Shown: positions 1 through 64,000 of the stretch, piece by piece
How the letters are laid out: the number at the start of each line of letters is the position of its first letter
Numbering within the stretch: position 1 is the stretch's first letter
Assembly (NCBI RefSeq): GCF_032854445.1
Contig: NC_088300.1
Coordinates: 60,534,969 to 60,598,968, forward strand
Reading direction: 5' to 3'
Source of the DNA: Liolophura sinensis
Taxonomy: Eukaryota
Length of the DNA stretch: 64,000 nucleotides
The notes under the pieces: model-generated
Told to the model about the DNA's origin: nothing
The model's database searches: none
The model's input: the letters and a program-made list of their open reading frames with translations, nothing else
Translations under genes and position numbers: made by a program

Positions 1-3000
1 GCCTAACTTGCGACCCATGAAGTTATGCATCTGAACTTGAGCTAAAATAAACGTCTGTGTGTTCACCTTCACTTCTTTCACTTACCAAAACACAGCTTAA
101 TTAAACGTGTGTTATCAGAAATCCAGTTAACGACAAAATTTTTCATCTACTGTACATCTCGTGTTGGTGAGAATCCATTGGCGCGCTCCTATGGTGCAGA
201 TGGGCCAAGTTGTTCAAATGTGTATTGACCGTTAAGACCGGAGTGAGGCTAACAAATTTTAGGTTTTTTAAGTAATTTTAAAATAATAACCTCGTCCATC
301 TTATGGACTATAAAATTATCGCAAGACACCCATAACAGGAACAATATTTCGTAAGTAACTGTAGTTCGAACTGAAGTCCAATTGGTATTGTATTAAGAAA
401 AAAAAAAGAACAGTATTAAGATTTTAGCCTTGGTTAACCATTGATACATTTTTCAACAACTGACCCCCTATGTATTGCTGCGTGGCGAATAGATGCCTAT
501 CCTTGATTCGAAAGCCGGAGTGATCTCTGTCACTGCCAAACCCAATTTTATAACCATAATGCTGTTATTCTGGTCCATTAATTGCACATTTGGTATTGGA
601 ATTGTCTATATGAATTATCAGATCCAACATCTTCAAAACAAAGCTGAATAGAAATACTGAACAATTAAGTCACTGAACATGATTTCTCATGTAACATGTA
701 GATCTCTTATAATTATAACATGGTTTCGATGGAAGTTCTGATGTACACTTAATAGGCATACATCAACGGAATCAGCACTTTGGCGGCATGGACTCGCCCT
801 GCGACAAGAAGCCATAATATATGTATAAGTACACACCTAATGACTCCTCGTCATATGCCATCAAAATTATTAAGCACGACGTAAAACCCAAAGCATACAT
901 ACATATTCAATACCAGCCAAAAATTATGCCGATAGTTTCGATAGTTACCGATTAGTTTATACAGTACTGAGCTTATTGGTGTTTACAATATCCGTCTTCA
1001 TAACTTTATACGCTGTTCCCGGACCATGTAACGTAGTTCACCAAAAGGGACACAACTTTTACACACCTTAATACAATGAGAGTGATCCCCCTTTTTTCAG
1101 CACTTCAAATTCGCCCAGAACATTTCTTGCGTTTCCGTCATCGGTTAAAACTGGTAACTGCTTCTCTTTGCATACATTCGTTCTAAATGCTTGCTTTATA
1201 TACTTTCTGAGTTGTTCTGGAAACTGATCTTACAATCACTGGCCAGGGAAGTTCATTCTCGTTGAACGTCATGTTTTGACGCCTATAGATATTCCTTCCA
1301 AACTTCCACATCATGATGTTCCAGAAAGATAGAACTATCAAACAGAGGATCCAAGGACATCCTAGCAATTTCCAATGAATGAAAAGAAAAATGATCACAA
1401 ATTGGATTCGTAATAATGGCATATCATCTAACTGGCCTTACATAACCGAGTTGGCAAATTCGAAGGTACTGTATTTCTACAATTTATAACTAACGTAACA
1501 AATTATGTGCAGTTCAATGTTTCCCAGCTACAATATACGTCTTTCGTTCGCGTTGAAGAAAAGGTATCATTTTCCCAAGATGGCATTTCAGTACATTCTG
1601 AAAAGGCATATCATTTCCTTGAAAACAAACACTACTGATATTTTGATTGACGAATTGATCAAACTAACGAGTACGTTTCACCAGGACCGATTTGCTATCT
1701 AATCCTGAGAACCGTATTTATATGCCGTTCAAAATTGTTAGCGTTTTTAGACTGGTGTTAACTTTATTACACACTAAAGTGCACCTTGCTCGGTAGGCCT
1801 GCATGACATGAGACTTTATTTTTTAGATGACTGTTCCCAGAAGTTAGTGCCACAGGACTTATCATGAACTTTCCCCTTTTACGACGGTGGTCACTGCAAA
1901 CCATGCATTCTTGGCAAATTACTGGACACCTCTCTCACATGTGACAAGTGTCACATTGATGAAAGACAGGTGCATGGTCTCCCATGACCTAGATGTAAGA
2001 TTACACAAAAAGCAGAATTCTAATAATTATGGAAAAAGGCGAATCTTCAAACAAGCAGTTCCCAAACACTGCTGCAGTATGAATGATGGGTATTTACACA
2101 TCTTAGAACCAGTCTGTGTGGGAAGGAAATATTAAACATTTTTCGTCAAAGACAAGATGTCCAGGCAAACTCCAGGCCTCTGTAAAATCACAATGTTATG
2201 ACACGAAAAAACTGAATAATCCTAAAGGATACCTTAACTGATTAGACCAGGATGACCTTTGAAAACACTGAAGAATAACACACAACAAATGAAGGTTTAT
2301 ATATAAAGCAAAAACAGTTCCAATAGCTTTGTGTTATTTAGCTTTATGTGCACTGAGAAGAATACAGTTTGATGGTTTATTTTAAAAACACATGATGAGA
2401 ATTTTGTGACTTATTTATTTGGGTTCTTCTAAAGTCACACTTGAGCAACAAAGAACACAAAAAAGTATCTGAAATACACACATGGACAGGAGACTGTATA
2501 TACTTTTCTGGGGAAACATCACAACAACAAGTCATTCTGTTGCCTTTTTTAGATGATTTAAGTTAGATTCAATAAATATGACCACCTTCTTTATACTATC
2601 TACAATGTAAACATAACTGAGAAAAAAAAAAAAAAACACAACAACATAGCACTGACATAAAAAGTCATCGTATCATATGCTTTGGTATCCTTATAATATA
2701 ATTCAGGTACATGTAGCTTGGCCAAAAAAACTGTGGTCAACTTGACAAAAATAAATAAATAAAACTCTCTTGCCAAAAGATTATAGCATTGCAATATCGG
2801 GAATAAACATAACCTCAACTCCATCAAACATTAATCTCATTACTGACTAAAACCTGAACTAAAGACATTTTGATTTCAAAAATCTCAATATTTGGAATGC
2901 ACCTGGCCCTGGCAAAAATCTTAGTTTAGATGTAGCTAAAGGTCGTATTAATAAGCATGCAGAAGTTGTGAGAGTACATGATTCAGAAGTTCTAGAAGGT

Positions 3001-3034
3001 CTGGCAGCAACCTACAGATAGTCATGGGTTTTCT

Positions 3035-3110
3035 CTGGGCTCTGCCTGGTTTCCTCCCACCATAATGCTGGCCACCATCATATAAGTGAAACATTTTTTT
3101 TTTTGTTTGA
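3035..3110 (+). mobile_element. SINE-A fragment
   Basis: Sequence ggctctgcctggtttcctcccaccataatgctggccaccatcatataagtgaaacatttttt. Confidence 0.55.
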
Positions 3111-5524
3111 TATATAAACAGCAGATATGACTGTTTCCCATGACAGACTTTGTTTGATACATAAACAGTATATATGTCTGTTTTCCATGAGAGATTTTGT
3201 TTCTCTGGATCTACTTTTCTGGAGAAGTATTTATACATTGTACATGTACATAAAGTATATTCAACATTAAAATGCAAAATGTAGCATACAGCCAAATGGG
3301 GTTCATATAATCTTAGGGCAAGAGAGTCATATGTCAGGACAAGACTTTAAAATTGTACTGTATTATGCTATACAATAAAAGAAAACACAAACACACATGC
3401 TTTAACATAAATATACATAGGAACAAAACAGAAAAACACAGTACACATGACACACATGTACTGAGTGTTCAGTCAGCATTAAAACTCATAAGCTGTAATA
3501 AATACATACAGGTTTAAAATTGGTTTTTGGTTTGCATGTACAGATCTGATATAAGATAGAGCTAAAGGCATGAAAGCTTGCAACATTTGTAACATGGCCA
3601 GAAATGAGTATAAAATGTAACAATATTTCAACAACAACAAAAAAAGAAAGGAACCACAATTCTTCTCTATCTTACATTAAATTCTGAGAAAAACAGTAAA
3701 AATTTGCTAATATCCTGGATTTCTTTTAGCAGGTCCACACATAATCTGCTTATTAATACTATTATAAGGTAAAATTAAAATAGGTTATTGTGGTATATGT
3801 ATGAAAGTCCAAGGGCACTGTACCTAAAACAAAGCTATTTTCAAACTCACCTAAAATTCAATAGGTTTTTGTGTGTGTGTCAAATTTCACTGATTTGCCA
3901 ACACATAACATAATGTTTTTGATTTAGGACATAATATTAAAAAAAAAAATGTCAAATCATTTTTCAATTTTTTTTTTTGCAAAAGTGTGAAAGCAGCCTA
4001 AATTGTGCATGTTATCATTGCATATACCATACTCTGACCACTGTGAATATGATGATAGCTTTATATTCATGACTAGACCTGTGTAAAGCTCAAAACAACC
4101 TTCATAAAGGTGTTTTCATAAATATTCTCAAGCTGTACCTGCACTTGAATAAAAATAAAGAACCGGTTAATGTTACAGTGTGTAAATATTGATAATATAC
4201 AGAATACATCATTCTGAGACTGACAACAAAGACAACAACACATTAACATGCCAGCAAATTACATCCCATATGACAAGTTTGGGATCTCCCAAACTGAAAC
4301 AAAAAAAAAAAAAAAGGACATTTTTCCAATAAATTCCTCTATCACTTTTGGTCATGTAACTTTGATATTTGCATGTAAAATTATGACAAACCTTGAACTG
4401 ATCTCTCCACTAACATAATGCTGCCTCAATAAAACATATCCATAGAAAAGCCATGTTATGATACAGTTTTGTGTAGCTACTCATACTGTTAATCTACAGA
4501 TACAAGAAAAAAATACAGCTGAACATGATGATGGCCAATGTCAAACTGGTACAATTACTTAAACAGAAAATTACATGTAGTACAACACACTTTTTTTAAG
4601 ACAAAAGCATGTTGTGAGCTTTATAATAAAACATGTTTGCAGTGCTGTGAAAAGTGGTATTTTCCAAAAAAATATTCATCTGGTGGCTGTATAGATCATT
4701 TCTCAATGGTACTTGACTTATAAGAAAGCACTATGGTTTATAAGTACAAGAAACCAAGAAAAGCAAAGAAGAAACCAAGAGGATCAAGTATAAGGGAAAT
4801 ACCCACAATGCACCAGGATCAGGGGGGAAAAGGATCAGTGGATAGGTTACCTTTAAACATGCAAAAGACTGAAAAAACAAATGTGGTACAAAGACAGAGT
4901 CAGCCAACTGTCAAATATCTTAACTGTATTTGGCACTTTTCTTTTTTTACCCTCATCAGGAGAATTATTTCCATACATCAAAACAAATTAAAATCTGTCA
5001 AAGTTTCAAAAGATGTTGACAAAAGAGTAAACAAGTTACCTATAACATGTCTTTAGGCTGTCTAGTCAAAAAAGCAAGAAACACTTCCTCCAAACTCCTA
5101 ATTGCATTTTTGTTGTTGTTGGAATTGTCTCAAAAACTATGTAGTCTACAATGACTAGAGCTGACATGATGCACACAATACAATGCCTAGAGCTGACATG
5201 ATGCACACAACATGTCTAAAAAACATCTAACAACAAAGTCTGGTGAATGAGGGCGACTTTTCAAGAACTGTCCCAAAGGCAATGTATACATACAAACTCT
5301 GTCAGCCTTGTGGCTGAGTGCAACCAAGAGTGACTTTGAAATGAACACAACGATGAGAAGGTTATTTAAAAAGAGCAGAGAGTCAGACCCATGTGCACAT
5401 GTTACATGTTAACTATAAACTTAAAAAATAAAAAACGAGTCTTTCATTAAAGCCTTGTTACAACCATTCCTCCTAACAAGCAGTTCACCAACACAATCCT
5501 TGTCTAGCGTTTAACAATAGTAGC

Positions 5525-5875
5525 TTGTTCAACAAGTACATGATTGTGCAACAACTACACACTTGTACAACAAGTACACACTTGTACAATGAGTACAAAC
5601 TAGTGCAAACAAGTACATAACTGTGCAACAAGTACATAACTATACAACAACTGCAAGCTTGTACAACAAGTACACACTTGTACAATGAGTACAAGCTAGT
5701 ACAACAAGTACACACTTGTACAACAAGTACACACTTTTACAATGAGTACACACTTGTACAATGAGTACAAGCTAGTACAACAAGTACATGACTATACAAC
5801 AACTGCAAGCTTGTACAACAAGTACACACTTGTACAAGCTAGCCTGTACAATGAGTACAAGTTTAATAAGTACTG
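5525..5875. repeat. Minisatellite, roughly 21-bp unit (tgtacaacaagtacacacttg and variants), about 16 copies
   Basis: Visible periodic repetition of gtacaa(c/t)(a/g)agtaca... The ORFs at 5485-5715 (-) and 5742-5927 (+) lie inside it. Confidence 0.85.
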
Positions 5876-8017: not shown

Positions 8018-8112
8018 AAACAAAATTTTATTCATTCATTTATTTATTTAACTGATGTTTTATGTCATACTCAAGAATATTTCACTTATACGACGGTGGC
8101 CAGCTTTATGGT
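8018..8112 (-). mobile_element. SINE-A copy, 5'-truncated
   Basis: The reverse complement reads ccataaagctggccaccgtcgtataagtgaaatattcttgagtatgacataaaacatcagttaaataaataaatgaatgaataaa. Confidence 0.7.
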
Positions 8113-8860: not shown

Positions 8861-9550
8861 CTAGAGAATACAGCAACAGTGACGTTTTCGGGGACTCTTC
8901 ACAGCATCAGACAACGGCACAGTCTTGGCAACAATCACCCGCTGAGGTTCCAGAGGGGGACCTGCTTTATGCTGGGACTGAATTTCCACATGTATCGTGG
9001 CTGGGAGAATGTTTTTGGAGATTATGACCGACCCCTGGTTAAGATCCTCGCTCTCTCGAGCAGGGGAGTGGGGCGGGTCACTAGGTGTATTAGGTACGCT
9101 GCTAACATCTGTCTCCATATCACTGGCAATTTTCTCAACCGTGACAAAATCCATGGAGGTCCTCCTCTCCACTGATTCCTCAGATGACGAGCTATGATGG
9201 CGCGTACGTTTTGGCCACCTTAACAACACGCCCTCATACTTTCTAACCTGTTGTGCGCATTCTAAAAAGGATTTCTTCTTTTTCAGCAAGGAGGAGTTAT
9301 TATTCTCTGAGGAAGCACTGTCTGATCCTGCACTAGTGTTTAAGCACTTGTGTCTAATACTGGTAAAAAAGTCAGGGGGGAGGAGGTGTTCTTGCTCAAA
9401 TGTTGCATAATCGTGAATTGAAACATTGTCAAGGAGAATGTTGTCCACCTCTTCTCCGTTAACTGAGACAGTCTGAGGACGAGAGATATGACGATTCACA
9501 ACAGGAGAATTACCTTGACCATTCCTCAGATGAAAGAACAAACAGACTGG
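8861..9550 (-). CDS. INPP5A: INPP5A-like terminal coding exon, with a long Ser-rich insertion and a CaaX box (stop TAG at 8861-8863)
   Basis: Acceptor ttttctgttgccctctgcag. Translation starts PVCLFFHL (human PVFLAFRI) and then runs about 200 aa of Ser/Glu-rich low complexity. It ends ...SPRKRHCCCIL followed by stop; human ends HKCCVVQ. Confidence 0.75.
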   Translation of the reverse strand, partial: PVCLFFHLRNGQGNSPVVNRHISRPQTVSVNGEEVDNILLDNVSIHDYATFEQEHLLPPDFFTSIRHKCLNTSAGSDSASSENNNSSLLKKKKSFLECAQQVRKYEGVLLRWPKRTRHHSSSSEESVERRTSMDFVTVEKIASDMETDVSSVPNTPSDPPHSPARESEDLNQGSVIISKNILPATIHVEIQSQHKAGPPLEPQRVIVAKTVPLSDAVKSPRKRHCCCIL

Positions 9551-9579
9551 CTGCAGAGGGCAACAGAAAAGAGAGAGAG

Positions 9580-9725
9580 ACATCAATTATGAACAACTGA
9601 ATAGTGAGGTGGACATCATTTATGAAAAATTGAACTATGAGATGGACATAGTATATGAACCACTGAATTGTGAGGTGGGCATAATTTATGAACAACTGAA
9701 TAGTGAGGTGGACGTCAACTGTAAA
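9580..9725. repeat. Tandem repeat, roughly 33-bp unit (atttatgaacaactgaatagtgaggtggacatc), about 4.5 copies, in the last INPP5A-like intron
   Basis: Repeated ...tgaa.aactgaa.agtgaggtgg.cat... blocks. Confidence 0.8.
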
Positions 9726-9992
9726 GAAGTCCATCATAGAGAGCATATCATTTCCAAAAAATAAATCAAAAGCTGGACAATCTTTATGAACAAAGGAAAT
9801 GTGAAGAGAACATGTATTTTTTGCTGATACCAGAGACTTGCTGTGCTAATCTTATATGCTGACATTCCCAAAACTGATTCTCAGGTTTTTAAACCATATG
9901 GCTTGTTTCAATCTTACAGTATTTAAGTATAGTTAAAAGCTGCTGTGTATATACTACTATCAGTAAACTTACACATGTATTCTCACACTCAC

Positions 9993-10055
9993 CTTGTGGT
10001 CTCCCATACAAATACTCTTTCCTATCAAGTCATAACTCGGTTTATGTTTTTCGTC
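9993..10055 (-). CDS. INPP5A: INPP5A-like penultimate exon (GDHK catalytic motif)
   Basis: Acceptor tctttttgtttcag and donor GTGAGT. Translation DEKHKPSYDLIGKSICMGDHK versus human SEEKVVTYDHIGPNVCMGDHK. The next exon starts with PV, completing GDHKPV. Confidence 0.85.
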
Positions 10056-10901
10056 CTGAAACAAAAAGATCTCAAACAATGCAATGAAATTCTGCACGAC
10101 AGAAAGATTAAAATGATGACCATAATAAAAAAAAAAAAACAACAGCATACATGGATCTATGGTTTTCAGTTCAACAAATTGCAGATATGTCAACCTAAAC
10201 AAATCAGGGAAGTCCACAGGCATGTGCTGTGGAGCAGTTGCAATGTAAACCCATGTGCAGTGAGGGTATCTTTTCACTATATGTTGACTATACATTATGC
10301 CACAGGCATGTTGTGCCTGCTTCATAGGACGTATCCCAGGCCCTTCTCAAGCAATACACATGAAATATCTAAATTTAGTAGAATTTTAGTAAATTTGAAT
10401 GGATTCTGAAATCCAATATGGCCGCAAATGATGTGACCTACATTACCTATTCCGCGTCTCTTGATGTAACTTTTATGCTTCTACCACATATTAAATTTTT
10501 AGATTCCTGCCTACAGCGATATGTCTTCTGGGAATACAGAATTATAATAATAAAAAGGTGACAGTGAAAACAGGCATTTCCAGCAAAGCTGCTGGAACCC
10601 TTAAATACATGATCCTGTGACAATGCTCAACAGTAGATGTACCTACCATACAAAAATGGACGAAAAGCTTCTCAGCTGCATTCCACTAACTTGCCACTTT
10701 GTACAGTAAGCTCTAGTATAGTAACACTTTTGGTATTAAGGGTGTAAGATATATTGCTATGGTCTATGGATACTGGGACATTCTTTCAGCATCCTGCAGT
10801 GAGTCCACCACAGTCAGTCCACCACAGGCACACCAGTGGCTGGCTACTGGCTTGCCTATATTGTGACCTATTAGCCTGATTAGTACCATACTAAACCTTA
10901 C

Positions 10902-11013
10902 ATCCAGCATCAATTGCTTGGCCCCAGGACTTAGCAGGACTCGGTCACACCATGACGGACAGCGGGTTTTCATATAAGACATCCCATCATTCAGATCTTC
11001 ACTGAACGGGTAA
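10902..11013 (-). CDS. INPP5A: INPP5A-like exon carrying the PxWCDR(I/V)L motif
   Basis: Acceptor ttatttattttattatttag and donor GTAAGG. Translation (S)YPFSEDLNDGMSYMKTRCPSWCDRVLLSPGAKQLMLD versus human SYPYSEDARQGEQYMNTRCPAWCDRILMSPSAKELVL. Confidence 0.85.
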
Positions 11014-11112: not shown

Positions 11113-11455
11113 GAGTGAGTGAGTGAGTGCTTGGGGCTTAACGTCGTACTCAGCAATTTTTCAGTCATGTGACGACGAAGGAATCCTTAGGGTGCATGTA
11201 TGTGTAATGTGCCTCCTTGTTGCAGGACGGATTTCCACCGCTCTTTTACTCAGTGCTGCTTCACTGAGACGACTTACCGAAGGCAAGTAAGCTGCCCCAC
11301 CAGAGCCATTATACTGATATGGGCCAACGAGTCGTTGCACTATCCCCTTCATGCTGAACGCCAAGGGAGGAAGTTACAACTTCCTCTTTTAAAGTCTTAG
11401 GTGTGACTCGATCAAGGATTGATCTTGGATCTACCGCTCCCGAAGCGGACGCAAG
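11113..11455 (-). mobile_element. SINE-B (subfamily B1) copy. Tail with a (CACT)n microsatellite at the low-coordinate end and a tRNA-like head at the high end.
   Basis: The plus strand reads (gagt)n cttggggcttaacgtcgtactcagcaatttttcagtcatgtgacgacg...ggacggatttccaccgctctttt...ttaggtgtgactcgatcaaggattgatcttggatctaccgctcccgaagcggacgc. The reverse complement of its start aligns with the SINE-A tail. Confidence 0.8.
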
Positions 11456-11523
11456 TCAAGAAGTGTCAAGTTTATACCTGTTCTTTCCAACAATTAGAGG
11501 AATATTGTTATTGACAATGCAAA

Positions 11524-12021
11524 AAGTTTCAATGTCATGTATTACACACACTAGGCTTCAATGTCCTGTATTACATACACATACACAAGGTTTCAATGTC
11601 ATGTATTACATACACATACACAAAGCTTCAATCCCATGTATTACATACACATACACAAAGCTTCAATCCCATGTATTACATACACATACACAAAGCTTCA
11701 ATCCCATGTATTACATACACATACACAAAGCTTCAATGTCATGTATTACATACACATACACAAAGCTTCAATGTCATTTATTACATTCATATACACAAAG
11801 CTTCAATATCATGTATTACATACACAAAGCTTCAATGTCATGTATTACATACACATACACAACGCTTCAATGTCATGTATTACATACACATACACAAGGT
11901 TTCAATGTCATGTATTACATTCACATACACAAAGCTTCAATATCATGTATTACATACACAAAGCTTCAATGTCATGTATTACATACACATACACAAAGCT
12001 TCAATGTCATGTATTACATAC
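11524..12021. repeat. Minisatellite, 35-bp unit (caaagcttcaatgtcatgtattacatacacataca) with 28-bp variants, about 14 copies
   Basis: Clear tandem periodicity. The long plus-strand ORFs (248, 157 and 142 aa) are frame-preserving artefacts of this array. Confidence 0.9.
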
Positions 12022-15734: not shown

Positions 15735-15905
15735 GTTTCATTTCCTCTCCGGCCGTATGTGGGAAGGTCTGTCAGCAACCTGCGGATGGTTGTGGGTTTC
15801 CCTAGGGCTCTGCTCGTTTCCTCCCACCATAATGCTGGCCGTTGTCGTATAAGTGAAACATTCTTGAGTACGGTGTAAAACACCAATCAAATAAACAAAT
15901 AAACA
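15735..15905 (+). mobile_element. SINE-A copy (tRNA-derived SINE, body plus conserved tail)
   Basis: ...ggaaggtctgtcagcaacctgcggatggttgtgggtttccctagggctctgctcgtttcctcccaccataatgctggccgttgtcgtataagtgaaacattcttgagtacggtgtaaaacaccaatcaaataaacaaataaa. Confidence 0.8.
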
Positions 15906-17229: not shown

Positions 17230-17410
17230 ACAACTGATATTTATTTATCTCATTGGTGTTTTATGCCTTACTCAAGAATATTTCACTTATACAACGGCTG
17301 CCAGCATTCTACGACGGCTACTATTCTGGTGGGAGGAAACCAGGCAGAGCCTGGGGGAAACCCACAACCATCCGCAGGTTGCTGCAGACATACAGCTGGA
17401 AAGGAAGCCA
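17230..17410 (-). mobile_element. SINE-A copy
   Basis: The reverse complement matches the family body and tail (cctgcggatggttgtgggtttcccccaggctctgcctggtttcctcccaccagaatagtagccgtcgtagaatgctggcagccgttgtataagtgaaatattcttgagtaaggcataaaacaccaatgag...). Confidence 0.8.
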
Positions 17411-17955
17411 TACAACTGATGTTAAAGTCACCACAAGTGTATCATTTAGGGTGTATTCATTGTTGTACTGCCTTTCTTAATATCACAGAAAGAAATCTGA
17501 AGCTTATTATTTGTAATCTGATATCATCATGATCATGATCATGGTCCCGGGTTCTTGTCATTGTTCACATCTCACCTTGCCATTGTTGTCCTCATCAGTG
17601 TAAACGATCTTGCTCAGCTGGTCTTTGTTCCCTTTCTGGTGGTGAACTTTGGCTTTATTTGTTAATTCCTGCTCAAATAAAAAGACTATTCTGAAATAGC
17701 ATTTAACACCATAATTGGGAACATTTTATACAAGTGTAGCACATACACGTACTCAATTAAAACGAATGTTTGTAATGTAAAAAAGACACAAAACATACCT
17801 GCACAAGATATCTTATATCAAGGCGGAAATTGAAATCCCCAAATATAAAAAGAGGGACCTTTTCATACTTGTCATTTTCAAATCTGAAAACAAAAAGATA
17901 AAATGGCCATCACAATATTAATATGGATAACTGTTTCCTGAAATTCAGATTCATG

Positions 17956-19322: not shown

Positions 19323-21769
19323 CCTGACTGTATCATTTACTGACCACCACAGATGTAAAATCAGTTCATTTACAAGCCATGTAATAATCAACAACTATCA
19401 CAAATTATACCAGACAGTAGCATACCGTCTCGGCCCAAACTGCATTCATCTCCCCATACACATTTTTTGTCCTTCATTTCAGTGTCTAGTCAACAGTTTC
19501 TAAATAACAAATATCAGAGTCAGTGCAAAATTCATTAGGGATGCCGAAAGTTTATGGGAATGAGAAGACGGCACCTCACCGGACAACGCTTAAAATTAAT
19601 TAAATCTTATGATATAATTTTTCCTTCTCTGGATTTATTACTGAAGAATTTAAATTTTACTCCTGCTTCTTTGTCGCATACAAGGGATGTTCTTTCTGTT
19701 TTCTTTGACAAAATACAGTAAAATTATTGAAATGCTGTGTTCAAGCCGATGTGCTTTCTCTGACGTCCGCAATAACCAGGTCAGCACTGCTTTCATCTTA
19801 CAAAATGGAAGTATACAATCCAGTTGAATGCACAGATCAGCCTCAATAGTGCTTAGATTTATTTCCATTTGTTTGAGAATTGAACATGAGTCTAGTATGT
19901 CTTCCAGTATGTGCAATTTCCAAGAAAACTATTCATCACTTGGGCCTTCATTGTCGAGGTCCACAGTTTTTATCTGCAATGGGCTACTGCTTAGACTATT
20001 GTACAGAAAATACCTTTGACGTTAGAGAGCTAGAGTTAACGTGACCCCACCTTGTTCTCAATAATGGAGATGTGCTGATTCCGTGTCAACATAAAATTTC
20101 ACTTAATTTTTACTGGGTTGAAAAAAGTCTTAAAAAAATATTTAATGTCGGTTTAAGATACTTTGAATGGTAGTCCTTCAGCGGACATAAACATTAGCCA
20201 GGTGCTGTCTTTCACTTTAACTTGCGATAATATTCCTGAATTTATATTTCAGCTTTTGATTTTTAAATTTTTCAAGAAAGCTTAGGAAAACTCTTGGTAT
20301 CACCATAAAAATCTGTCAGGTAATTATAATCAAAAATAATACAAAAATAACAGTTTATACTTTGGTATCTGAAACTCAACACACATGTGACATTATTTGT
20401 TAGAAGGCCACTACACAAAAAAAATCTACCCTAAGAAAATCATTTAACAGTGTAAAAAAGTCTTTAAAATGACCTCAGAAACTACATGCATCACTACTGG
20501 TCCTTCCATATTTGACACCCAGAATTCCACATAGCTCACCTTTGGAGAGTGTGCATAAGAGCTTGTTGTCGGTTACCACAGTAGAGAGAAGGACTCTGAA
20601 AACGAGGAGATATATTAATTATATTAATTATTCCTTTGGTTTTTTTTTTTGGGTTTTTATTGGGGGGGGGGGGGTGTATTGCTTTCCTTTTTATTTTTTT
20701 CGGAGAGGGGTGAGGGCAGTATATTCCTCAGAAGATCTCACATTCTCATATTCTCAGTCTTTTTGCTCTCCCATTGCCAACATATGTATAGTGCTGCTTC
20801 AATGGAACAACATGCTGAGGACACCGCCCATGTCGCATCTGGTACAGTACAGTTGACTACTAGAAGCACCTGATATCTATCACTTGACATCGATTGCCAG
20901 GTGAGTTAGAACCAAGATTAAAACTTCCAGTCTTTAAGGTATGACTCATGCATACATGGGCTGAACTCAGGTCTTCAAACATAACTTATGTACATGTATG
21001 TACAAATTTATATAAAACTATATAATTATGCAAATAATCTATATACAGAAATATGGAAAGGACTGCCACACTGTTTCTCTGTCTTCATCATTGGGCAGAA
21101 GACAGCAGCATTTCATGCTACATGTAGGTGCATTAATGTAACAATAAATTAATTTAAATGCAGATTACAACTTGCAATTTGTTAATGTGAGGGTGCACAC
21201 TCAACACCTGAGAAATGAATGTATTACATATTAAACACTTTTTTCACCACATTTACAGAATATTTCTGAATTTTTTGGACCCAAGGAACATGAGGTTTAG
21301 AACCACAATAAAATTTACTGGAATTAATTTAAATAATTCCATTACTTGATATGTATACCCATAGTTTTGTATCCTAATCAGAAAGCATTTCACACTGTAT
21401 AGCCTGAAGCATTTTCATTTCCATATTAAAGGCCAATTTGAAGCATGACCAATACATCTATAAACAAAATAAGATCACAAAAGTTAGAAGCCACCACTTT
21501 TCAATAAAACACTGGATACAAAACTTGATTTTCCAATATTGCAGATGATTTTTCCATATTGTCTATTTCTTACGAAAACTTGCATTATTCATAGCATGGA
21601 TCTTTGTGAAGTTCTAGTAATTTCCAGATTGAAAACTTTGCTGGTGGGGGCTATTATCTACATGCTGGTAGTATGACAATGTTTTAGTAATGTGAACATC
21701 TATGTGATACACTGTACAAATAATCCATAAATGTGCAGCTGGTAAGTAGACACTTCAACTCAAATGCAG

Positions 21770-22860
21770 GAGGAGTCTTGGTGACCAAGGTGGTTAGCAA
21801 TGACCCAGGAGCCTCAGTGGCTGAGGTGGTTAGCAATGATCCAGAAGACTCAGTGACCGAGGTGGTCAGCAAAGACCCAGGAGCCTCAGACGCCAAGGGG
21901 GTTAGCAATGACCCAGAAGACTCGGTTGCCAAGGTGGTTAGCAATGACCCAGGAGCCTCAGTGACCGAGGTGGTTAGCAATGACCCAGAAGACTCAGTGA
22001 CCGAGGTGGTTAGCAATGACCCAGGAGCCTCAGTGAGCGAGGTGGTTAGCAATGACCCAGAAGACTCAAGTGACTGAGGTGGTTAGCAATGACCCAGGAG
22101 CCTCAGTGACCAAGGTGGTCAGCAAGGACCCAGGAGCCTCAGTGACCGAGGTGGTCAGCAATGACCCAGGAGCCTCAGTCGCCAAGGCGGTTAGCACTGA
22201 CCCAGGAGCCTCAGTGACCGAGGTGGTTAGCAATGACCCAGAAGACTCAGTGATCAAGGTGGTTAGTAATGGCCCAGAAGACTCAGTGACCAAGGTGGTT
22301 AGCAATGACCCAGGAGACTCAGTGACCAAGGTGGTTAGCAATGACCCAGAAGGCTCAGTGAACAAAGTGGTTAGCAATGACCCAGGAGCCTCAGTGACCG
22401 AGGTGGTTAGCAATGACCCAGAAGACTCAGTGACCGAGGTGGTTAGCAATGACCCAGGAGCCTCAGTGACCGAGGTGGTTAGCAATGACCCAAAAGACTC
22501 AGTGACCGAGGTAGTTAGCAATGACCCAGGAGCCTCAGTGGCCGAGGTGGTTAGCAATGACCCAGGAGCCTCAGTGACCGAGGTGGTTAGCAATGACCCA
22601 AAAGACTCAGTGACCGAGGTGGTTAGCAATGACCAAGCAGACTCAGTGACCAAGGTGGTTAGCAATGACCCAGGAGCCTAGTGACCAAGGTGGTTAGCAA
22701 TGACCCAGGAGCCTCAGTGACCGAGGTGGTTAGCAATGACCAAGCAGACTCAGTGACCAAGGTGGTTAGCAATGACCCAGGAGCCTCAGTGACCAAGGTG
22801 GTTAGCAATGACCCAGGAGCCTGAGTGACCGAGGTGGTTAGCAATGACCCAGGAGCCTCA
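21770..22860 (+). repeat. Satellite array of about 30 tandem 36-bp units (ggtggttagcaatgacccaggagcctcagtgaccga), derived from an internal SINE-A segment
   Basis: Period of 36 nt with minor variants (ccagaagactc / ccaggagcctc). The unit is similar to the SINE-A internal region gttagca..caatgacccaggagcgtctcacc. The array runs directly into a SINE-A body and tail at 22861-23010. Confidence 0.9.
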
Positions 22861-23010
22861 AGTCCAGCTCATGCTGGCTTCCTCTCTGCCCGTAAGTAGG
22901 AAGGTCTGCCAGGAACCTGCAGATGGTCGTGGATTCCCACAGTCTACCACAGTCATATATGTGAAATATTCTTGAGAACTGTGTAAAAACACCATTGAAA
23001 TAAATAAATT
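22861..23010 (+). mobile_element. SINE-A body and tail contiguous with the 36-bp satellite
   Basis: Sequence agtccagctcatgctggcttcctct...gtgaaatattcttgagaactgtgtaaaaacaccattgaaataaataaa matches the family consensus seen at 15735-15905 and 63878-64000. Confidence 0.8.
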
Positions 23011-24477
23011 TATAAAATGCAAGACAACTATGTGTTAGTCAAATTAATGACTAAATATACATGTAAACATTTTGTTTATTTAGATTTGCAACAAGGCATA
23101 ATAAGTACTGGTAATCATCCACAATCCTAGTTAGGTAAAACAATACTTACAGGACTGCATGGCCACGATGTTAGAGGCATCATGAAACAAGTGTATGTTC
23201 ACCAGGTCAAAAACACTGAAAGTAAAGATTTCAAAACCACGAATAACAAGGCTATATCACAGGGCTAAAAGTAGATTTGGAGAATGGAGAATGAAGAATG
23301 AAATAAACAATAATGGCCACATCAGCAATATTTCAGTGATATCATGGTGGACTTGAATGGAGAAGATTAAAGCCAAATAGATTTATTTACTTGATTGGTG
23401 TTAAATGCTGTGCTCAGGAAGTTTGCACTTGAGCAATAAATATAAGATCTAAGGTCAAAGGAAACTGATGTGCCCAGAGTAAACCTTAGCCTTAAGCCAG
23501 GCAACCGGGACCTTAACTTTATTTATTTAATTATTTAAGTGTATTTATTTCATTGGTGTCTCTATGTCTGAAAACAGGAATGTTCCAATTAAATTATAAA
23601 TCTCTTATTCCTACATGTACCAAATGTACCTAACAAATGTCCTGACATTAGATGCTGAAGAACCCGCAAGACCTGGATTGTAACTCAATGCTTGGTAGTG
23701 AATCCAGAGTGGCTAGAACTAAGCTGTAGTCCAATCAACCAAGGGGCCGATCCCACTTAAGTCTGACTTAAGTTGAATTATGATCTGAAAGCTTGTTTTT
23801 TGGGCTTTAGAAGTTAAAATTTTGCCAGTCCATACCTGTTATTGATATTCCACCTTGTTCTTAAGAATCCTTTTCTAGACCACTTGAACTACGGAAAAAA
23901 ATTATCAAAGGCTTCATAAATTACAGGTGAGTACCTAACACCAAATCACAAAAATTCTATGTCTAATGAAATGTCTAATATAATAATCCAATTCATATCA
24001 AGTAATAAATACACTATACCTAGAAGATAACAATTTAAGAGTGTAAATCCTTTGATTTGTAAGTCTTTGATGTGGACAAATCTGTGGGTACATGATGTAT
24101 AGGTCCTTAGGAAATCAGACATGCAGACATTAAAGTAAGAATTAGGGTTATTGTCTGGGAAATGTATACCGTTTATACTGTGGAGAAGTGACTTACTTAT
24201 ATTCTTTCAGTCCATTGCTTCATGGAAGAACAGTAGTTAAGTTATTTACAGTGCTATTCATAAATACTCCTATTAGAACACAATGAACTGGGTTAAGCTC
24301 AATATGTACACAAATAAATAAGGCAGTACTCTTTATCAATGTCACGTACTGTTAACCTAGTCCTCAACTCATAATTTATGCCAGAAGCATTACAATGGCA
24401 TTTTTGCAAGAAGATACATTACATAATTTCTTACTGATTAAACCACATGACCTAAATAACATACACAACACACCTAC

Positions 24478-24958: not shown

Positions 24959-25300
24959 AGAAAGAATGAATGAGTCAGTGCTTTATGGTTTAACATCGTA
25001 CTGAACAATTTTTGAGTCATATGATGACGAAGGAATCCTTAGAGTGCATGTAATGTGCCTCCTTGTTGCAGGACGGATTTCCACCGCTCTTTTATCTAGT
25101 ACTGCTTCACTGAGACGCCTTACCGAATGCAAGTAAGCCGCCCCACCCGAGCCATTATACTGATACAGGTCAACCAGTCATTGCACTATCCCCTTCATGC
25201 TGAACACCAAGCGAGGAAGTTACAACTTCCTCTTTTAAGGTCTTAGGTGGGACTCGCCCCAGAATTGACCCTGGATCTCTACCAACTATGCTAATGGGGC
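24959..25300 (-). mobile_element. SINE-B (B1) copy
   Basis: About 90% identical to 11113-11455 over its length (…ggacggatttccaccgctcttttatctagtactgcttcactgagacgccttaccgaatgcaagtaagccgcccc...). Confidence 0.8.
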
Positions 25301-36785: not shown

Positions 36786-36950
36786 GGATTCTTCTCCAGC
36801 CGAACACGGGAAAGTTTGTCAGTAACCTGCAGATGGGTATGGGTAATTTTCCCTGGGCCAGACTTCCTCCCACCATAATAGTGGCCACCGTTGTATAGGT
36901 GAAATACTCTTGATTACGGCGTAAAACACCAATCAAAAAAGTAAATATAT
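36786..36950 (+). mobile_element. SINE-A copy
   Basis: Sequence gtcagtaacctgcagatgggtatgggtaattttccctgggccagacttcctcccaccataatagtggccaccgttgtataggtgaaatactcttgattacggcgtaaaacaccaatcaaaaaag. Confidence 0.8.
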
Positions 36951-42057: not shown

Positions 42058-42170
42058 TCTTTCAGCATGCTCCAGAGGCACAAATGTCACATCTTTCAGC
42101 ATGCTCCAGAGGCACAAATGTCACATCTTTAAGCATGCTCCAGAGGCACAAATGTCATATCTTTCAGAAA
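42058..42170. repeat. Tandem repeat, 34-bp unit (tttcagcatgctccagaggcacaaatgtcacatc), about 3.3 copies
   Basis: Three near-identical consecutive copies. Confidence 0.85.
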
Positions 42171-47134: not shown

Positions 47135-47275
47135 TTATTTATTTATTTATCAATTTGATTGGTGCTTTACACCATACTCCAGAATATTTCACTTATACAA
47201 CGGCAACCAACATTATGGTGGGAGGAAATCTAGCAGAACCAGGGGAAAATCCATGCTCTGGCATGCTATCCAATT
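47135..47275 (-). mobile_element. SINE-A copy
   Basis: The reverse complement matches the family body and tail (…cctggttctgctagatttcctcccaccataatgttggttgccgttgtataagtgaaatattctggagtatggtgtaaagcaccaatcaaattgataaataaataaataag). Confidence 0.75.
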
Positions 47276-60001: not shown

Positions 60002-60905
60002 GAGTGAAATGTATTCCTCGCCAAACCATGGAATAATCCTCACACAGAAGTACTCGACCCCTCAGCTTTTCACTGCACGGATTACATCGCACTTAGGTTG
60101 TTCGCGGCAGTAAGTGCCATTTAAAAAACCACCATTGGTGTCAAAATCAGGGGATTTCTACCTCAGCATCGTTCACAACACAACTGACATTTCTCCTACC
60201 CAGATCGCCGCTGTGGTCCTACGTCATCAGTTTGTGTGCTCTGCAGTACAGCTGGATTTTTAGTGCCAGGGTAACTGCAGCGTTATTAATGGATACGCAG
60301 GTGTTCGTCCTAGAACAGACCCACAAAGTTGGACAAAACTGTTTGTTGTACCAGAAAAAGATAGAATTTATATAATGGTGTCAAATTTCCACATGAACAA
60401 ATGATTCTGGAAAACTGTTTTAAATAAACAGGTATTTAAATGAACGCGTTGTACACTGGGCATGTTGAAATGATCACATTTACTTTTTACATCAAAATTC
60501 ACTTGATTATTTCTATAATTTTATAATGACATAATATTTACTATTACTATTTTTATTTGGTGTTTTGGCACTTTTCAAGAATAAAATTCTGTGCTGTTTT
60601 CACACATTAAGAAGAATATGAAACGTCAACAAATAAATCTGCAAAAGATACCTTAAATGAGGCGTTATTAATATTTATTGTCTTAACATCAAATTGTTTC
60701 ATTCACAGCATGTTTATAATGCAAGTTCTCGGGCTTGTCCACACGCTTGGTCCGAGCTACAAGTGTGGCAACGCACGCTGTCACTGCTTGTGCTTTCCAT
60801 TGGTCAAACTCAGCAGGTGACCTTTCGTGACCTCGTCGTTTGCGTGGAGATCGTAAAACAAATGTCGAAAACACTGTCAAGAACTGCTACAGTTTTCAAA
60901 TTTTG
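60002..60905. promoter_or_regulatory. Putative bidirectional promoter / 5'UTR region between the divergent INPP5A-like (-) and DUF4062/NWD-like (+) start codons
   Basis: The two start codons are about 900 bp apart in head-to-head orientation. Sub-segments 60100-60310 and 60700-60850 are CpG-containing and GC-richer than the otherwise CpG-poor, AT-rich surroundings. Confidence 0.4.
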
Positions 60906-61005
60906 ATGACCATGGGTGACAAAACAATGTTCGAGGGTAGCCTTGACAGTCTACCCGAGCAAGAGTCTTTGGTCGTTCGGGTGTTTCTAAGTTCAACTTT
61001 CACTG
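60906..61005 (+). CDS. NWD1/NWD2-like (DUF4062 N-terminal module) exon 1, with start codon
   Basis: Kozak-like context gaccATGg. Translation MTMGDKTMFEGSLDSLPEQESLVVRVFLSSTFT followed by a GTAAAA donor in phase 1. (V/I)F(L/I)SSTFTD is the DUF4062 signature that opens NWD-type STAND proteins. Confidence 0.75.
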
Positions 61006-61574
61006 GTAAAATACAAAAGTTTAGTTCTCAACTTACTAGTGCAGCAACAACAACACTTTTAGTTGATTCTCGATATCAGAGTTTGAATTTAGCATTGGCT
61101 TCCATTGTACTTGGGATTAAGATAGACGTGTGTCTTAATCTCAGATTATACCAACCCCACGCTGTCCTGACTTTCATGATCTAACATAGCAATACTTGTG
61201 TCAGTGCACTGACATATGATCAGTAGCGTTATTGTGATCATAGTATATATTACGCCCTCGTAGTGATATGATTCACTTTTTTTTTAACCGCCACCCCCCC
61301 ACCCCCCCCCACGCGCCTCTCCCAACACAAAATACAGTCTTCCTATTAAAACATTGTTATGAATAGTCAGAAAACATAGTATGACATATAGAATGTGTTA
61401 ATATATGGACCTTATAAATGAAGAAAAACATCTTATATTAGGTAAGCTATGTATTGAACATGAGAAAACATTATCACTGAGCTGCATGTAAAGGTTTAAT
61501 ATTGGGAAGGCATTTACCTGCACTTTTGTCAGAATTTTAAATTTGTATTCTTGTGTTGTTTTGCTATCAAGGCA

Positions 61575-61885
61575 GTAGATCCAGTGTCAGTCCTGTGTCG
61601 GGTCACACCTAAGACCTTAAAAGTTGTATCTTCCTTGCTTGGCGTTCAGCATAGAGGGGATAGTGCAATGACTGGTTGGTCCACATCAGTGTAATGGCTC
61701 GGATGGGGCACCTTACTTGCATTCGATAAGTCATCTCAGTGAAGCAGCAGTAGATAAAAGAGCGGTGAAAATGCGTTCGGCAACAAGGAGGCACATTGCA
61801 CGCACACTAAGGACTCTTTTGTTGTCATATGACTGAAAAATTGTTTTGTACAAAGTTAAACCCCAAGCACTCAGTTGCACTATCA
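61575..61885 (+). mobile_element. SINE-B (B1) copy in intron 1 of the NWD-like gene
   Basis: Reverse-complement copy of the 11113-11455 family. It ends ...gtcatatgactgaaaaattgttttgtacaaagttaaaccccaagcactcag. Confidence 0.8.
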
Positions 61886-63747: not shown

Positions 63748-63877
63748 GTATGAACAATTAGCAGAAGTTTGTTAGATTTTAACCTCTAACAAACATTTCT
63801 GTGTAGCTGTATGTCATTATGCTTTTGTATTCCATACATTCATCTTCATATACAATGACTGTATGATGGGAGGAAGT

Positions 63878-64000
63878 GGCCAAGGGAGTTAGCACGCCAG
63901 CGCAGCACAATGACCCAGGAGCGTCTCACCAGTGGGCTCATTGGGAGTTGAAGTCCAGCTCATGCTGGCTTCCTCTCCGGTTGTCTATGGAAAGGTCTGT
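63878..64000 (+). mobile_element. SINE-A 5' head (tRNA-like, B-box-like gagttgaagtcc), cut by the window end
   Basis: Sequence ggccaagggagttagcacgccagcgcagcacaatgacccaggagcgtctcaccagtgggctcattgggagttgaagtccagctcatgctggcttcctctccgg... continues into the family body. Confidence 0.7.

What the first reader, a model, noticed from the sequence alone, without database searches (positions are those of the whole stretch)
21770..23010. SINE-born satellite: a 36-bp array whose unit comes from an internal segment of the adjoining SINE-A
About 30 tandem 36-bp units run straight into a normal SINE-A body and tail. The unit (gttagcaatgacccaggagcctcagtgacc) matches the SINE-A head/internal region (gttagca...caatgacccaggagcgtctcacc). 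This looks like satellite DNA being generated from inside a retroposon. Because 36 is a multiple of 3 and the unit has no stops, both strands show ORFs of about 200 aa (VVSNDPGASVTE / SLLTTSVTEAPG repeats). These ORFs are artefacts, but such arrays could be exonised.
Basis: seen in the sequence. Interest (0 to 1): 0.6.

Follow-up and report, generated by a model that had tools for sequence, protein, structure and literature searches.

The report
Minisatellite grown inside a SINE
A 36-base piece from the head of a short retroposon (SINE) has been copied 30 times in a row inside that same SINE copy; this is a real but already well-known way for mobile elements to seed tandem repeats, and the long open reading frames it creates are by-products.

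Summary
The array spans 21781-22860 with 30.0 units of 36 bp at 88% match. It runs directly into a SINE body and tail.

The array does not merely adjoin the SINE. It sits inside one full-length insertion:
- target-site duplication AAATGCA at 21762-21768 and 23015-23021
- SINE 5' end at 21769-21780
- array at 21781-22860
- body and tail at 22861-23014

Both halves of the unit match the head of the only other headed copy in the window (63869-64000), in the same order:
- 3' half: local score 33, reached by 0 of 5000 shuffles
- 5' half: 15 of 19 bases, reached by 11 of 100000 shuffles

The 3' half also matches a SINE head from a related species (L001).

Compared with those heads, this copy lacks 15 nt inside the unit. 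It also lacks 25 nt, including half of the B-box-like motif, at the array/body junction.

Multi-unit block duplications point to growth in place by slippage and unequal exchange.

The roughly 200-aa ORFs are artefacts. Two indels break the frame, one unit carries a stop, substitutions show no synonymous excess, and no real protein relatives were found.

"Satellite" is not shown. Only this one 1.1-kb locus is visible, and no public collection I could scan holds the unit.

This kind of array is known from squamate SINE-derived satellites, bivalve TSD-(SINE)n-TSD arrays and B1- or Alu-derived minisatellites. It is a new member of a known kind, of modest interest.

The parts
21762..21768 (+). Left target-site duplication, AAATGCA
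   Evidence: The same 7-mer lies directly 5' of the SINE start and directly 3' of the tail at 23015-23021. The chance that the 7-mer immediately before a given position recurs in a given 20-nt window is 0.002.
21769..21780 (+). SINE 5' end, GGAGGAGTCTTG, outside the repeated segment
   Evidence: It aligns with the 5' ends of the copy at 63869 (GGAGGAAG...) and of the related-species copy L001:1306 (GGAGGGGGGTCTCC...). Upstream flanks are unrelated in all three.
21781..22860 (+). Array of 30 units of 36 bp. Consensus GTGACCGAGGTGGTTAGCAATGACCCAGGAGCCTCA. Two main unit types: ..GGAGCC.. and ..GAAGAC..
   Evidence: TRF and unit tables. There is one 37-bp unit (22033-22069), one 35-bp unit (22646-22680) and a TGA in unit 29. 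GC is 55% against 37% for the window. The longest exact internal repeat is 103 bp. Units 24-26 and 27-29 differ at 2 of 108 positions.
22861..23014 (+). Rest of the same SINE copy: 3' remnant of the B-box-like motif (AGTCCAGC), a partly deleted central domain, and an A/T-rich tail similar to that of other dispersed copies (...AAATAAATAAATTTATA)
   Evidence: There is a 27-nt exact match to 63951-63977. It is 68-84% identical to 5'-truncated copies at 15742-15900, 62447-62503, 36885-36950, 8038-8099(-), 17239-17291(-) and 47139-47197(-).
23015..23021 (+). Right target-site duplication, AAATGCA
63869..64000 (+). Reference SINE-A copy with an intact head, cut off by the window end. It has an A-box-like motif at 63877 and a B-box-like motif at 63946.
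22052..22681 (+). Artefactual 209-aa ORF (VVSNDPGASVTE repeats)
   Evidence: No homologue in 5.8 billion protein clusters. The synonymous fraction is 0.32 against 0.26 expected under neutrality.
22066..22665 (-). Artefactual 199-aa ORF (SLLTTSVTEAPG repeats)
   Evidence: The 97 hits among 1.84 billion representatives are unrelated proteins with 12-residue repeats, and the best match is 14 of 24 residues over two units. The synonymous fraction is 0.39 against 0.31 expected.

Best explanation
A full-length copy of a dispersed SINE inserted here by LINE-type retroposition and made a 7-bp target-site duplication. The SINE has a head with A- and B-box-like motifs, a conserved central domain and an A/T-rich 3' tail. 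Within the head of this one copy, a 36-bp segment became tandemly duplicated. The segment runs from the A-box-like GTGRCCRAGG..GTTAGCA to AATGACCCAGGAGCCTCA and had already been shortened by a 15-nt internal deletion. The first duplication was probably seeded by short direct repeats in the head, such as AAGTGGCC / CAGTGGGC / AAGTCC and AGCA..AGCA. Replication slippage and unequal exchange then expanded it in place to 30 units, moving blocks of 2-3 units at a time. The same rearrangements removed 25 nt at the array/body junction, including the 5' half of the B-box-like motif. The array is non-coding and most likely neutral: a locus-specific minisatellite, and possibly the first step of a SINE-derived satellite. 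Shown: the array, its homology to the SINE head, its position inside an element flanked by a target-site duplication, the block duplications, and the lack of coding constraint. Inferred: the order of events, the microhomology seeding, and growth in place after insertion.
For: The array is real and far beyond chance. The 3' half of the unit matches the head at 63869 (CAATGACCCAGGAGC exact) with local score 33; 0 of 5000 shuffles reach it, and this is the best-scoring tile in the whole window. The same half matches the SINE head in the related-species contig L001 with score 30, again 0 of 5000. The 5' half matches the A-box-like region 15 of 19 ungapped, in the same order; 11 of 100000 shuffles reach that. 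Outside the array, each half has its only window-wide fuzzy match in that one head. The multiple alignment places the locus, collapsed to one unit, colinear with two full heads from the 5' terminus to the tail, with gaps of 15 and 25 columns. AAATGCA flanks the whole composite exactly at the SINE 5' start and after the tail. Growth by multi-unit exchange is supported by a 103-bp exact internal repeat at an offset of 433 bp, by units 24-26 and 27-29 differing at 2 of 108 positions, and by identical 72-bp dimers at 21961-22032 and 22394-22465. Growth in place is favoured because this copy has no B-box-like motif left (best match has 4 mismatches). It is therefore a poor Pol III master copy, and the deletion ends exactly at the array border. 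The array is non-coding: 37-bp and 35-bp units shift the frame, unit 29 has a TGA, minor-variant counts by codon position (tallied by hand from the column table) are 20, 37 and 15, and the synonymous fractions of 0.32 and 0.39 are close to the neutral 0.26 and 0.31. There are no true protein relatives. The architecture has precedents: squamate SINE-derived satellites with terminal units reaching the SINE termini (PMC10702118) and TSD1-(SINE)n-TSD1 arrays in the bivalve S. broughtonii (PMC11481361).
Against: Only two reference heads were available, one in the window and one from another species, so no family consensus could be built. I could not test whether a subfamily that already lacks the 15-nt and 25-nt segments exists. 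The target-site duplication flanks the whole composite, and the element has no run of four or more T. Retroposition of an element already carrying the array is therefore not excluded. A 7-bp A/T-rich duplication is modest evidence on its own: 6.8% of random 30 x 40-nt window pairs share a 7-mer. The 12 nt at the left edge could also be read as a degenerate partial unit (CAGGAG is shared). The head is not recognised as a tRNA by ARAGORN or Rfam, so 'tRNA-derived' rests only on weak A/B-box-like motifs. Array length cannot be verified without reads.
Confidence: 0.75

Rival explanations
1. The array is not private to this locus. It is one array of a SINE-derived satellite family spread over many loci, like the squamate sSats, so the reader's word 'satellite' would be right.
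For: The architecture matches that described for sSats: tandem units plus terminal units that extend to the SINE termini (PMC10702118). Units are about 90% alike and fall into two interspersed types, as in young satellites. The bivalve SINE survey used a 150-bp length filter and says short-fragment arrays may have been missed (PMC11481361).
Against: There is no second array or isolated unit in 64 kb. The unit core gave no exact match in metagenome or genome contig collections, though these hold little eukaryotic DNA. No ORF translated from such an array appears in 5.8 billion protein clusters. The array is only 1.08 kb long and lies in gene-rich sequence.
Confidence: 0.15
2. A SINE subfamily carries the 36-bp array as a built-in variable module, as SVA elements carry a VNTR. 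This copy was retroposed with the array already present.
For: The target-site duplication encloses 5' end + array + body + tail as a single unit. No run of four or more T would stop Pol III anywhere in 21769-23014.
Against: This copy lacks the B-box-like motif, and the other headed copies, 63869 and L001, have a single head with no repeat. A 1.25-kb Pol III transcript would be unusual for a SINE. The near-identical multi-unit blocks show turnover after any insertion.
Confidence: 0.1
3. The array is, or recently was, a protein-coding tandem-repeat exon. One candidate is a Ser/Thr/Pro-rich stretch on the minus strand, the strand of the neighbouring 5-phosphatase-like gene.
For: Two frames of the unit are open, giving ORFs of 199-209 aa. 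The minus-strand peptide TTSVTEAPGSLL resembles mucin-type repeats. The most 5' recognisable exon of a minus-strand gene lies about 3.9 kb away at 17760-17909.
Against: Two indels and one stop split the array into three ORFs per strand. The main variable sites are non-synonymous, and the synonymous fraction equals the neutral expectation. There are no homologues for either strand: the hits are unrelated 12-residue repeats, the best is 14 of 24, and the most similar one (P0025) has unrelated plant-like DNA.
Confidence: 0.03
4. The juxtaposition is chance: an unrelated minisatellite into whose edge a 5'-truncated SINE happened to insert.
For: 5'-truncated copies of this SINE are common in the window.
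Against: The unit matches exactly the part of the SINE that should precede the junction, in the right order and orientation (0 of 5000 and 11 of 100000 shuffles). A SINE 5' end and a matching target-site duplication lie on the far side of the array.
Confidence: 0.02
5. The array length or the array itself is an assembly artefact, through collapse or expansion of a repeat.
For: Tandem repeats are often mis-assembled, and no reads were available to check.
Against: Units carry many private variants and two indels in a non-periodic pattern. That pattern is what a sequenced real array looks like, not a consensus-collapsed one. Both junctions are unique sequence.
Confidence: 0.05

Closest known systems
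SINE-derived satellites (sSats) of squamate reptiles (Vassetzky et al. 2023, PMC10702118)
   Same: Tandem repeats are made from a portion of a SINE. The end units continue into the SINE sequence up to its terminus, and a minor variant has both termini, as here. Units are imperfectly homogenised, with dimer- or trimer-like alternation.
   Different: The host is different: a mollusc-type genome, judged from the SINE structure but not verified. The SINE family is unrelated. The unit is much shorter (36 bp) and comes from the A-box-like head with an internal deletion. Only one locus is known here, whereas sSats are defined over many loci, often subtelomeric.
TSD1-(SINE)n-TSD1 tandem-like SINE arrays in bivalves, especially Scapharca broughtonii (Martelossi et al. 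2024, PMC11481361)
   Same: One pair of target-site duplications encloses a first unit with the complete head, internal repeats truncated at both ends, and a last unit with the complete tail. Such arrays are found in genic and intronic regions.
   Different: Those repeats are near-whole SINEs of at least 150 bp, in 2-15 copies. Here the repeat is a 36-bp head fragment in 30 copies, below that study's detection filter.
Minisatellites or VNTRs expanded from inside SINEs in mammals: mouse B1-derived VNTR family, Alu-derived minisatellites (listed in PMC9659126; Ahmed & Liang 2012, PMC3389668)
   Same: A short internal SINE segment expands into a locus-specific tandem array by slippage and unequal exchange. 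This is a common fate of transposable elements: the review cites about 23% of human tandem arrays as derived from them.
   Different: The SINE families and unit sequences differ. The instability and length polymorphism shown for the mouse loci are untested here.
PcH-Sat of the limpet Patella caerulea, derived from a Nin-SINE (Petraccioli et al. 2024, PMC11121367)
   Same: A molluscan tandem repeat whose monomer contains a SINE segment.
   Different: PcH-Sat is a true pericentromeric satellite with a 179-bp monomer making up to about 10% of the genome. It lacks the A and B boxes. Here the array is a single 1.1-kb euchromatic array built from the A-box-like part.
SVA retrotransposons (hominids), composite elements with an internal VNTR. 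Comparison from general knowledge, not tested.
   Same: A non-autonomous retroposon with a variable tandem array of roughly 35-50-bp units between its 5' and 3' parts, all enclosed by one target-site duplication.
   Different: In SVA the VNTR is a family-wide module mobilised with the element. Here no second copy with an array is known, and the copy has lost its B-box-like promoter half.

Membership tests
SINE-derived tandem repeat (sSat-type architecture) | Head-to-tail units homologous to a portion of a SINE | tested here: met
   both unit halves match the SINE head in the same order (0 of 5000 and 11 of 100000 shuffles).
SINE-derived tandem repeat (sSat-type architecture) | Terminal unit(s) continue into SINE sequence up to the SINE terminus | tested here: met
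   the 5' end is at 21769-21780 and the body plus tail at 22861-23014. A target-site duplication lies on both sides.
SINE-derived tandem repeat (sSat-type architecture) | Several or many loci per genome carry the same unit | not testable with these tools
   The genome is not available. There is no second locus in 64 kb, and the unit is absent from the scanned collections.
Satellite DNA in the strict sense | Long arrays, high copy number, heterochromatic (centromeric or subtelomeric) location | tested here: inconclusive
   Only one 1.08-kb array is seen, between recognisable genes. Genome-wide abundance and chromosomal position are unknown.
Minisatellite / VNTR | Unit of 10-100 bp, array of about 0.5 kb or more at a single locus, interspersed unit variants | tested here: met
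   30 units of 36 bp in two main types plus private variants.
Minisatellite / VNTR | Length polymorphism between alleles or individuals | not testable with these tools
   No reads or second haplotype are available. Exact-ORF look-ups in public assemblies found nothing.
SINE (non-autonomous, LINE-dependent retroposon) | Dispersed copies that share the 3' body and tail, many of them 5'-truncated | tested here: met
   at least 8 partial copies on both strands.
SINE (non-autonomous, LINE-dependent retroposon) | Target-site duplication | tested here: met
   AAATGCA at 21762-21768 and 23015-23021. Seen for this copy only.
tRNA-derived SINE | Head recognisable as a tRNA, with internal Pol III A and B boxes | tested here: inconclusive
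   ARAGORN and Rfam find no tRNA. The A-box-like motif has 2 mismatches and the B-box-like motif 3 in the copy at 63869. The minimal B box GWTCRANNC is exact only in L001. A resemblance to the tRNA-Ser D-arm rests on my recollection only.
V-SINE superfamily | Conserved V central domain | not tested
   The central ..GGGTTTCCC..GTTTCCTCCCACC.. resembles the V domain as I remember it. No reference sequence was available in the tools or in the text of the papers.
Protein-coding tandem-repeat exon | Continuous frame, purifying selection, homologues | tested here: not met
   Frame shifts and a stop, neutral synonymous fraction, no true homologues.
SVA-like composite retroposon with an internal VNTR | Multiple retroposed copies, each with its own target-site duplication and a variable array | not testable with these tools
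   Only one copy with an array is known, and it lacks a B-box-like motif.

The most novel reading that the evidence does not exclude
The 36-bp unit may not be private to this locus. It could be the monomer of a so far undescribed SINE-head-derived satellite, or of a VNTR-carrying SINE subfamily, in a mollusc-type genome. That would extend the squamate sSat phenomenon to invertebrates, with the A-box-bearing part of the head as the amplified module.
Probability: 0.15. Interest if true: 0.45.

Novelty: new member of a known kind. Interest (0 to 1): 0.25.

Why it matters
This is a clean, fully resolved example of the first step from transposable element to tandem repeat. Both SINE termini and the target-site duplication are still in place around the array. 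The source segment, the two accompanying deletions and the block-wise growth can therefore be read directly from the sequence.

The bivalve SINE survey states that arrays made of short SINE fragments fall below its 150-bp filter and need targeted screening (PMC11481361). The squamate study left open whether SINE-derived satellites exist outside reptiles (PMC10702118). This locus is one data point for both questions.

In practice, the array produces ORFs of about 200 aa on both strands and a 55% GC island, either of which could mislead gene predictors. It changes no general concept, because minisatellites derived from transposable elements are common.

Tried and rejected
**Searches for other loci carrying the unit or the SINE**
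- Exact-pattern scans found nothing: unit core in metagenome contigs and genome contigs; SINE head/body junction in metagenome contigs; SINE tail in genome contigs and viral contigs. These collections hold little eukaryotic DNA, so the negatives are weak.
- Exact look-ups of three array or SINE ORFs in public assemblies found nothing on record.
- A protein search with a translated SINE consensus, meant to harvest more copies, found no candidates. That search was wasted.
- Contigs fetched through the neighbouring gene's relatives (L002-L008) added nothing. Only L001 and L002 reached the working folder for the blastn, and only L001 has a SINE-A-like copy.

**Tests of a coding reading**
- The plus-strand ORF has no homologue.
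- The minus-strand ORF gave 97 hits among 1.84 billion representatives. All are unrelated proteins with 12-residue repeats.
- The most similar hit, P0025 (SSVTESPGKM.. repeats), comes from a plant-like contig with unrelated DNA.

**Classification of the SINE**
- Rfam and ARAGORN give no tRNA or other family.
- Full-text searches for SINE sequence strings returned only coincidental primer matches.
- No supplementary SINE libraries are held for the mollusc SINE papers.

**Other checks**
- A hairpin or slipped-strand mechanism is not supported: four units folded as ssDNA are less stable than shuffles (z +1.9), and the array has no inverted repeats.
- Whether the array is intronic could not be settled. 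Pfam on pooled minus-strand ORFs from 15-34 kb gave nothing, and motif scans for the N-terminal 5-phosphatase exons gave nothing convincing.
- The organism could not be identified. The Logan run accession SRR26493809 appears in no paper.
Full report
**1. The observation**

Tandem Repeats Finder reports a single strong array at 21781-22860. It has period 36, 30.0 copies, 88% matches, no indels at its resolution and score 1647. The consensus is GTGACCGAGGTGGTTAGCAATGACCCAGGAGCCTCA.

A 20-nt core of the unit, allowing 3 mismatches, occurs 30 times. All matches lie inside the array, against 0.01 expected.

Splitting the array unit by unit shows:
- 28 units of 36 bp, one of 37 bp (22033-22069) and one of 35 bp (22646-22680).
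- Two interspersed unit types linked at columns 29 and 32: ..GGAGCC.. in 17-18 units and ..GAAGAC.. in 10-12.
- A G/A split at column 7 (17 G, 13 A), which is the CpG of CCGAGG.

The array is a 55% GC island in a 37% GC window.

**2. What the array is attached to**

The last unit runs straight into AGTCCAGCTCATGCTGGCTTCCTCTC. This string occurs exactly once more in the window, at 63955. There it sits inside an element whose head starts at 63869 and which is cut off by the window end.

The 150 nt after the array (22861-23014) are 68-84% identical to at least eight dispersed, mostly 5'-truncated copies on both strands. These include 15742-15900, 62447-62503, 36885-36950, 8038-8099(-), 17239-17291(-) and 47139-47197(-). 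All end in the same ...GTAAAACACCAATCAAATAAATAAA-type tail. That is the behaviour of a LINE-dependent SINE.

A contig from a related species, L001, carries a full copy of a related SINE at 1306-1580. L001 comes from Logan run SRR26493809 and was found through the neighbouring gene's last exon, which is 84% identical in DNA.

**3. The array is inside one SINE copy**

I collapsed the locus to one unit and aligned it with the two headed copies and three truncated ones. It is colinear with a full SINE from the 5' terminus to the tail.

The 12 nt before the first unit (21769-21780, GGAGGAGTCTTG) align with the 5' ends GGAGGAAG.. (63869) and GGAGGGGGGTCTCC.. (L001). The flanks further upstream are unrelated in all three.

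Directly outside lies the 7-mer AAATGCA, at 21762-21768 and again at 23015-23021, immediately after the tail. A shared 7-mer somewhere in two random 30 x 40-nt windows is not rare (6.8%). At these fixed positions, however, the chance is about 0.002.

The structure is therefore: target-site duplication, SINE 5' end, 30 units of 36 bp, SINE body and tail, target-site duplication.

**4. Is the unit derived from the SINE head?**

Yes, as far as two reference heads can show.
- **3' half of the unit.** It matches the head at 63869 over CAATGACCCAGGAGC(GT)CTCA with local score 33. No shuffle out of 5000 reaches this, and it is the top-scoring tile of the whole window. It also matches the L001 head with score 30, again 0 of 5000.
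- **5' half, GTGACCGAGGTGGTTAGCA.** It matches GTGGCCAAGGGAGTTAGCA, upstream in the same head, at 15 of 19 ungapped positions. Some unit variants reach 16 of 19. Only 11 of 100000 shuffles reach 15.
- **Uniqueness.** Outside the array, each half has its only window-wide fuzzy match in that one head.

Compared with both full heads, the unit lacks 15 nt between GTTAG and CAATG. The last unit joins AAGTCCAGC with 25 alignment columns missing. Both segments are present in the other species' SINE, so the full head is ancestral and the short form is derived.

The missing 25 nt include the 5' half of the B-box-like motif, which reads AGTTGAAGTCC at 63946 and AGTTCAAGTCC in L001. In L001 this contains an exact GWTCRANNC. 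The composite element has no B-box-like motif left.

The central domain of this copy also lacks about 33 columns.

**5. How it most likely arose (inference)**

The head contains short direct repeats at the relevant places:
- AAGTGGCC at the A-box-like motif, CAGTGGGC about 55 nt downstream, and AAGTCC at the B-box-like motif.
- AGCA..AGCA around the 15-nt segment that is deleted.

These could seed the deletions and the first duplication by slippage. Later growth was in blocks of units:
- The longest exact internal repeat is 103 bp, at an offset of 433 bp.
- Units 24-26 and 27-29 differ at 2 of 108 positions.
- The dimers at 21961-22032 and 22394-22465 are identical.

This pattern points to unequal exchange within the array.

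Hairpin-driven slippage is not supported. Four units fold less stably than shuffles (z +1.9), and the array has no inverted repeats.

I favour growth in place after insertion for two reasons. This copy has lost its B-box-like half, and that deletion ends exactly at the array border. I cannot exclude retroposition of an element that already carried the array, because the target-site duplication encloses everything and there is no run of four or more T anywhere in 21769-23014.

**6. The ORFs**

Only 2 of the 6 frames of the consensus unit are open, which is unremarkable for 12 codons. The 37-bp and 35-bp units shift the frame, and unit 29 carries a TGA, so each strand shows three separate ORFs.

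Variation shows no coding signature:
- Minor-variant counts by codon position, tallied by hand from the column table, are 20, 37 and 15.
- The common variants change the amino acid (E/K, G/E, A/D).
- The synonymous fraction of distinct variants is 0.32 on the plus strand and 0.39 on the minus strand, against neutral expectations of 0.26 and 0.31.

Neither ORF has real relatives:
- The plus-strand ORF has no homologue in 5.8 billion protein clusters.
- The minus-strand ORF gives 97 hits among 1.84 billion representatives. They are unrelated proteins that share only a 12-residue period, and the best match is 14 of 24 residues over two units.
- The most similar hit has unrelated, plant-like DNA.

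**7. Is it a satellite?**

That is not shown.
- Only one 1.08-kb array is visible, and it lies in gene-containing sequence.
- A minus-strand inositol 5-phosphatase-like gene has exons at 8.9-11.0 kb and 17.6-17.9 kb. A hand splice of these hits PF22669 at profile positions 171-260 of 288 (E 2.8e-6).
- A plus-strand DUF4062 gene lies at 60.9-63.75 kb (PF13271, E 1.6e-7).
- Whether the array is in an intron of the phosphatase-like gene could not be settled.
- The unit core is absent from the collections I could scan, but these hold little eukaryotic DNA.
- No genome of the source organism was available, and I could not identify the organism.

On present evidence this is a locus-specific minisatellite.

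**8. Comparison with what is known**

- **Squamate SINE-derived satellites.** They have the same architecture: units from part of a SINE, with terminal units reaching the SINE termini. The authors left open whether such repeats exist outside reptiles (PMC10702118).
- **Bivalve arrays.** Martelossi et al. describe TSD1-(SINE)n-TSD1 arrays with a complete head on the first unit and a complete tail on the last. Their units are at least 150 bp. They note that arrays of short fragments would have been missed (PMC11481361).
- **Limpet PcH-Sat.** This satellite derives from a Nin-SINE segment (PMC11121367).
- **Mammalian minisatellites.** B1- and Alu-derived minisatellites are classic cases, and about 23% of human tandem arrays are reported to derive from transposable elements (PMC9659126).

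The locus meets the tested defining features of a SINE-derived tandem repeat and of a minisatellite. The multi-locus feature of a satellite could not be tested. Recognisable tRNA ancestry of the head was inconclusive: ARAGORN and Rfam found no tRNA, and only weak box-like motifs were seen.

My impressions that the central domain is of the V-SINE type and that the head resembles the tRNA-Ser D-arm come from memory and were not tested.

**9. Verdict**

The feature is real and its origin is correctly identified. It is a new member of a known kind and of modest interest (0.25).

The most novel reading not excluded is that the unit belongs to an undescribed SINE-head-derived satellite or VNTR-carrying SINE subfamily in a mollusc-type genome. 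I put its probability at about 0.15.

Noticed in passing
window 11130-11455(-), 24985-25300(-), 61551-61694(+): A second, unrelated SINE-like family of about 330 bp. The copies share ..CCTAAGACYTTAAAAGAGGAAGTTGTAACTTCCTC..GGTGTTCAGCATGAAGGGGATAGTGCAA.. and translate as ..PKTLKEEVVTSSLGVQHEGDSA.. There are three copies in the window.
   Followed up: partly
window 11523-12021: A 35-bp x 14 array with a 134-bp higher-order period and 89% matches. It lies about 60 nt from the 5' end of the second-family SINE copy at 11455 and inside the 5-phosphatase-like gene. The unit shows no similarity to that SINE. It yields ORFs of 142-248 aa on the plus strand, which are also likely artefacts.
   Followed up: partly
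window 5524-5837; 9579-9717; 42058-42167; 3102-3202: Further tandem arrays: a 19/38-bp unit that is partly palindromic (CTTGTACAACAAGTACA), a 33-bp x 4.2 array next to the start of the 241-aa exon ORF, a 34-bp x 3.2 array at 96% identity, and a 47-bp x 2.1 repeat just after a truncated SINE-A fragment and a T-run at 2990-3100.
   Followed up: no
window 8864-9586(-), ~9983-10094(-), ~10820-11000(-), 17561-17725(-), 17760-17909(-): Exons of a divergent inositol-polyphosphate 5-phosphatase-like gene, with the motifs FGDFNFRL and CPSWCDRVL. A hand splice hits PF22669 at positions 171-260 of 288 (E 2.8e-6) and weakly matches SHIP1/2 structures. The N-terminal catalytic exons were not located, so whether the array at 21.8-22.9 kb is intronic remains open.
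   Followed up: partly
window 60900-63750(+): Exons of a gene with a DUF4062 domain (NWD/NACHT-like N-terminus). Spliced by hand, they hit PF13271 with E 1.6e-7. The reference SINE-A copy at 63869 lies just after a GT donor at about 63748, so it is probably in an intron of this gene.
   Followed up: partly
L001 (Logan SRR26493809), 1-2727: A genomic contig from a related species that covers the 3' end of the same phosphatase-like gene. The last exon and UTR are 84% identical in DNA, and the introns do not align. Its intron carries its own, non-orthologous SINE-A-like copy at 1306-1580 and a short SINE fragment at 765-871. The closest relatives of the last exon in 5.8 billion protein clusters all come from unannotated Logan or ENA assemblies. 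No close relative carrying a source-given name turned up.
   Followed up: partly
window 21781-22860, unit columns 6-7: The single CpG of the unit (CCGAGG) is intact in 17 units and reads CA in 13. Two of the CG units have T at column 6 and read TG. This pattern fits methylation-driven CpG decay acting on the array, a point of interest if the array lies in a methylated gene body.
   Followed up: no
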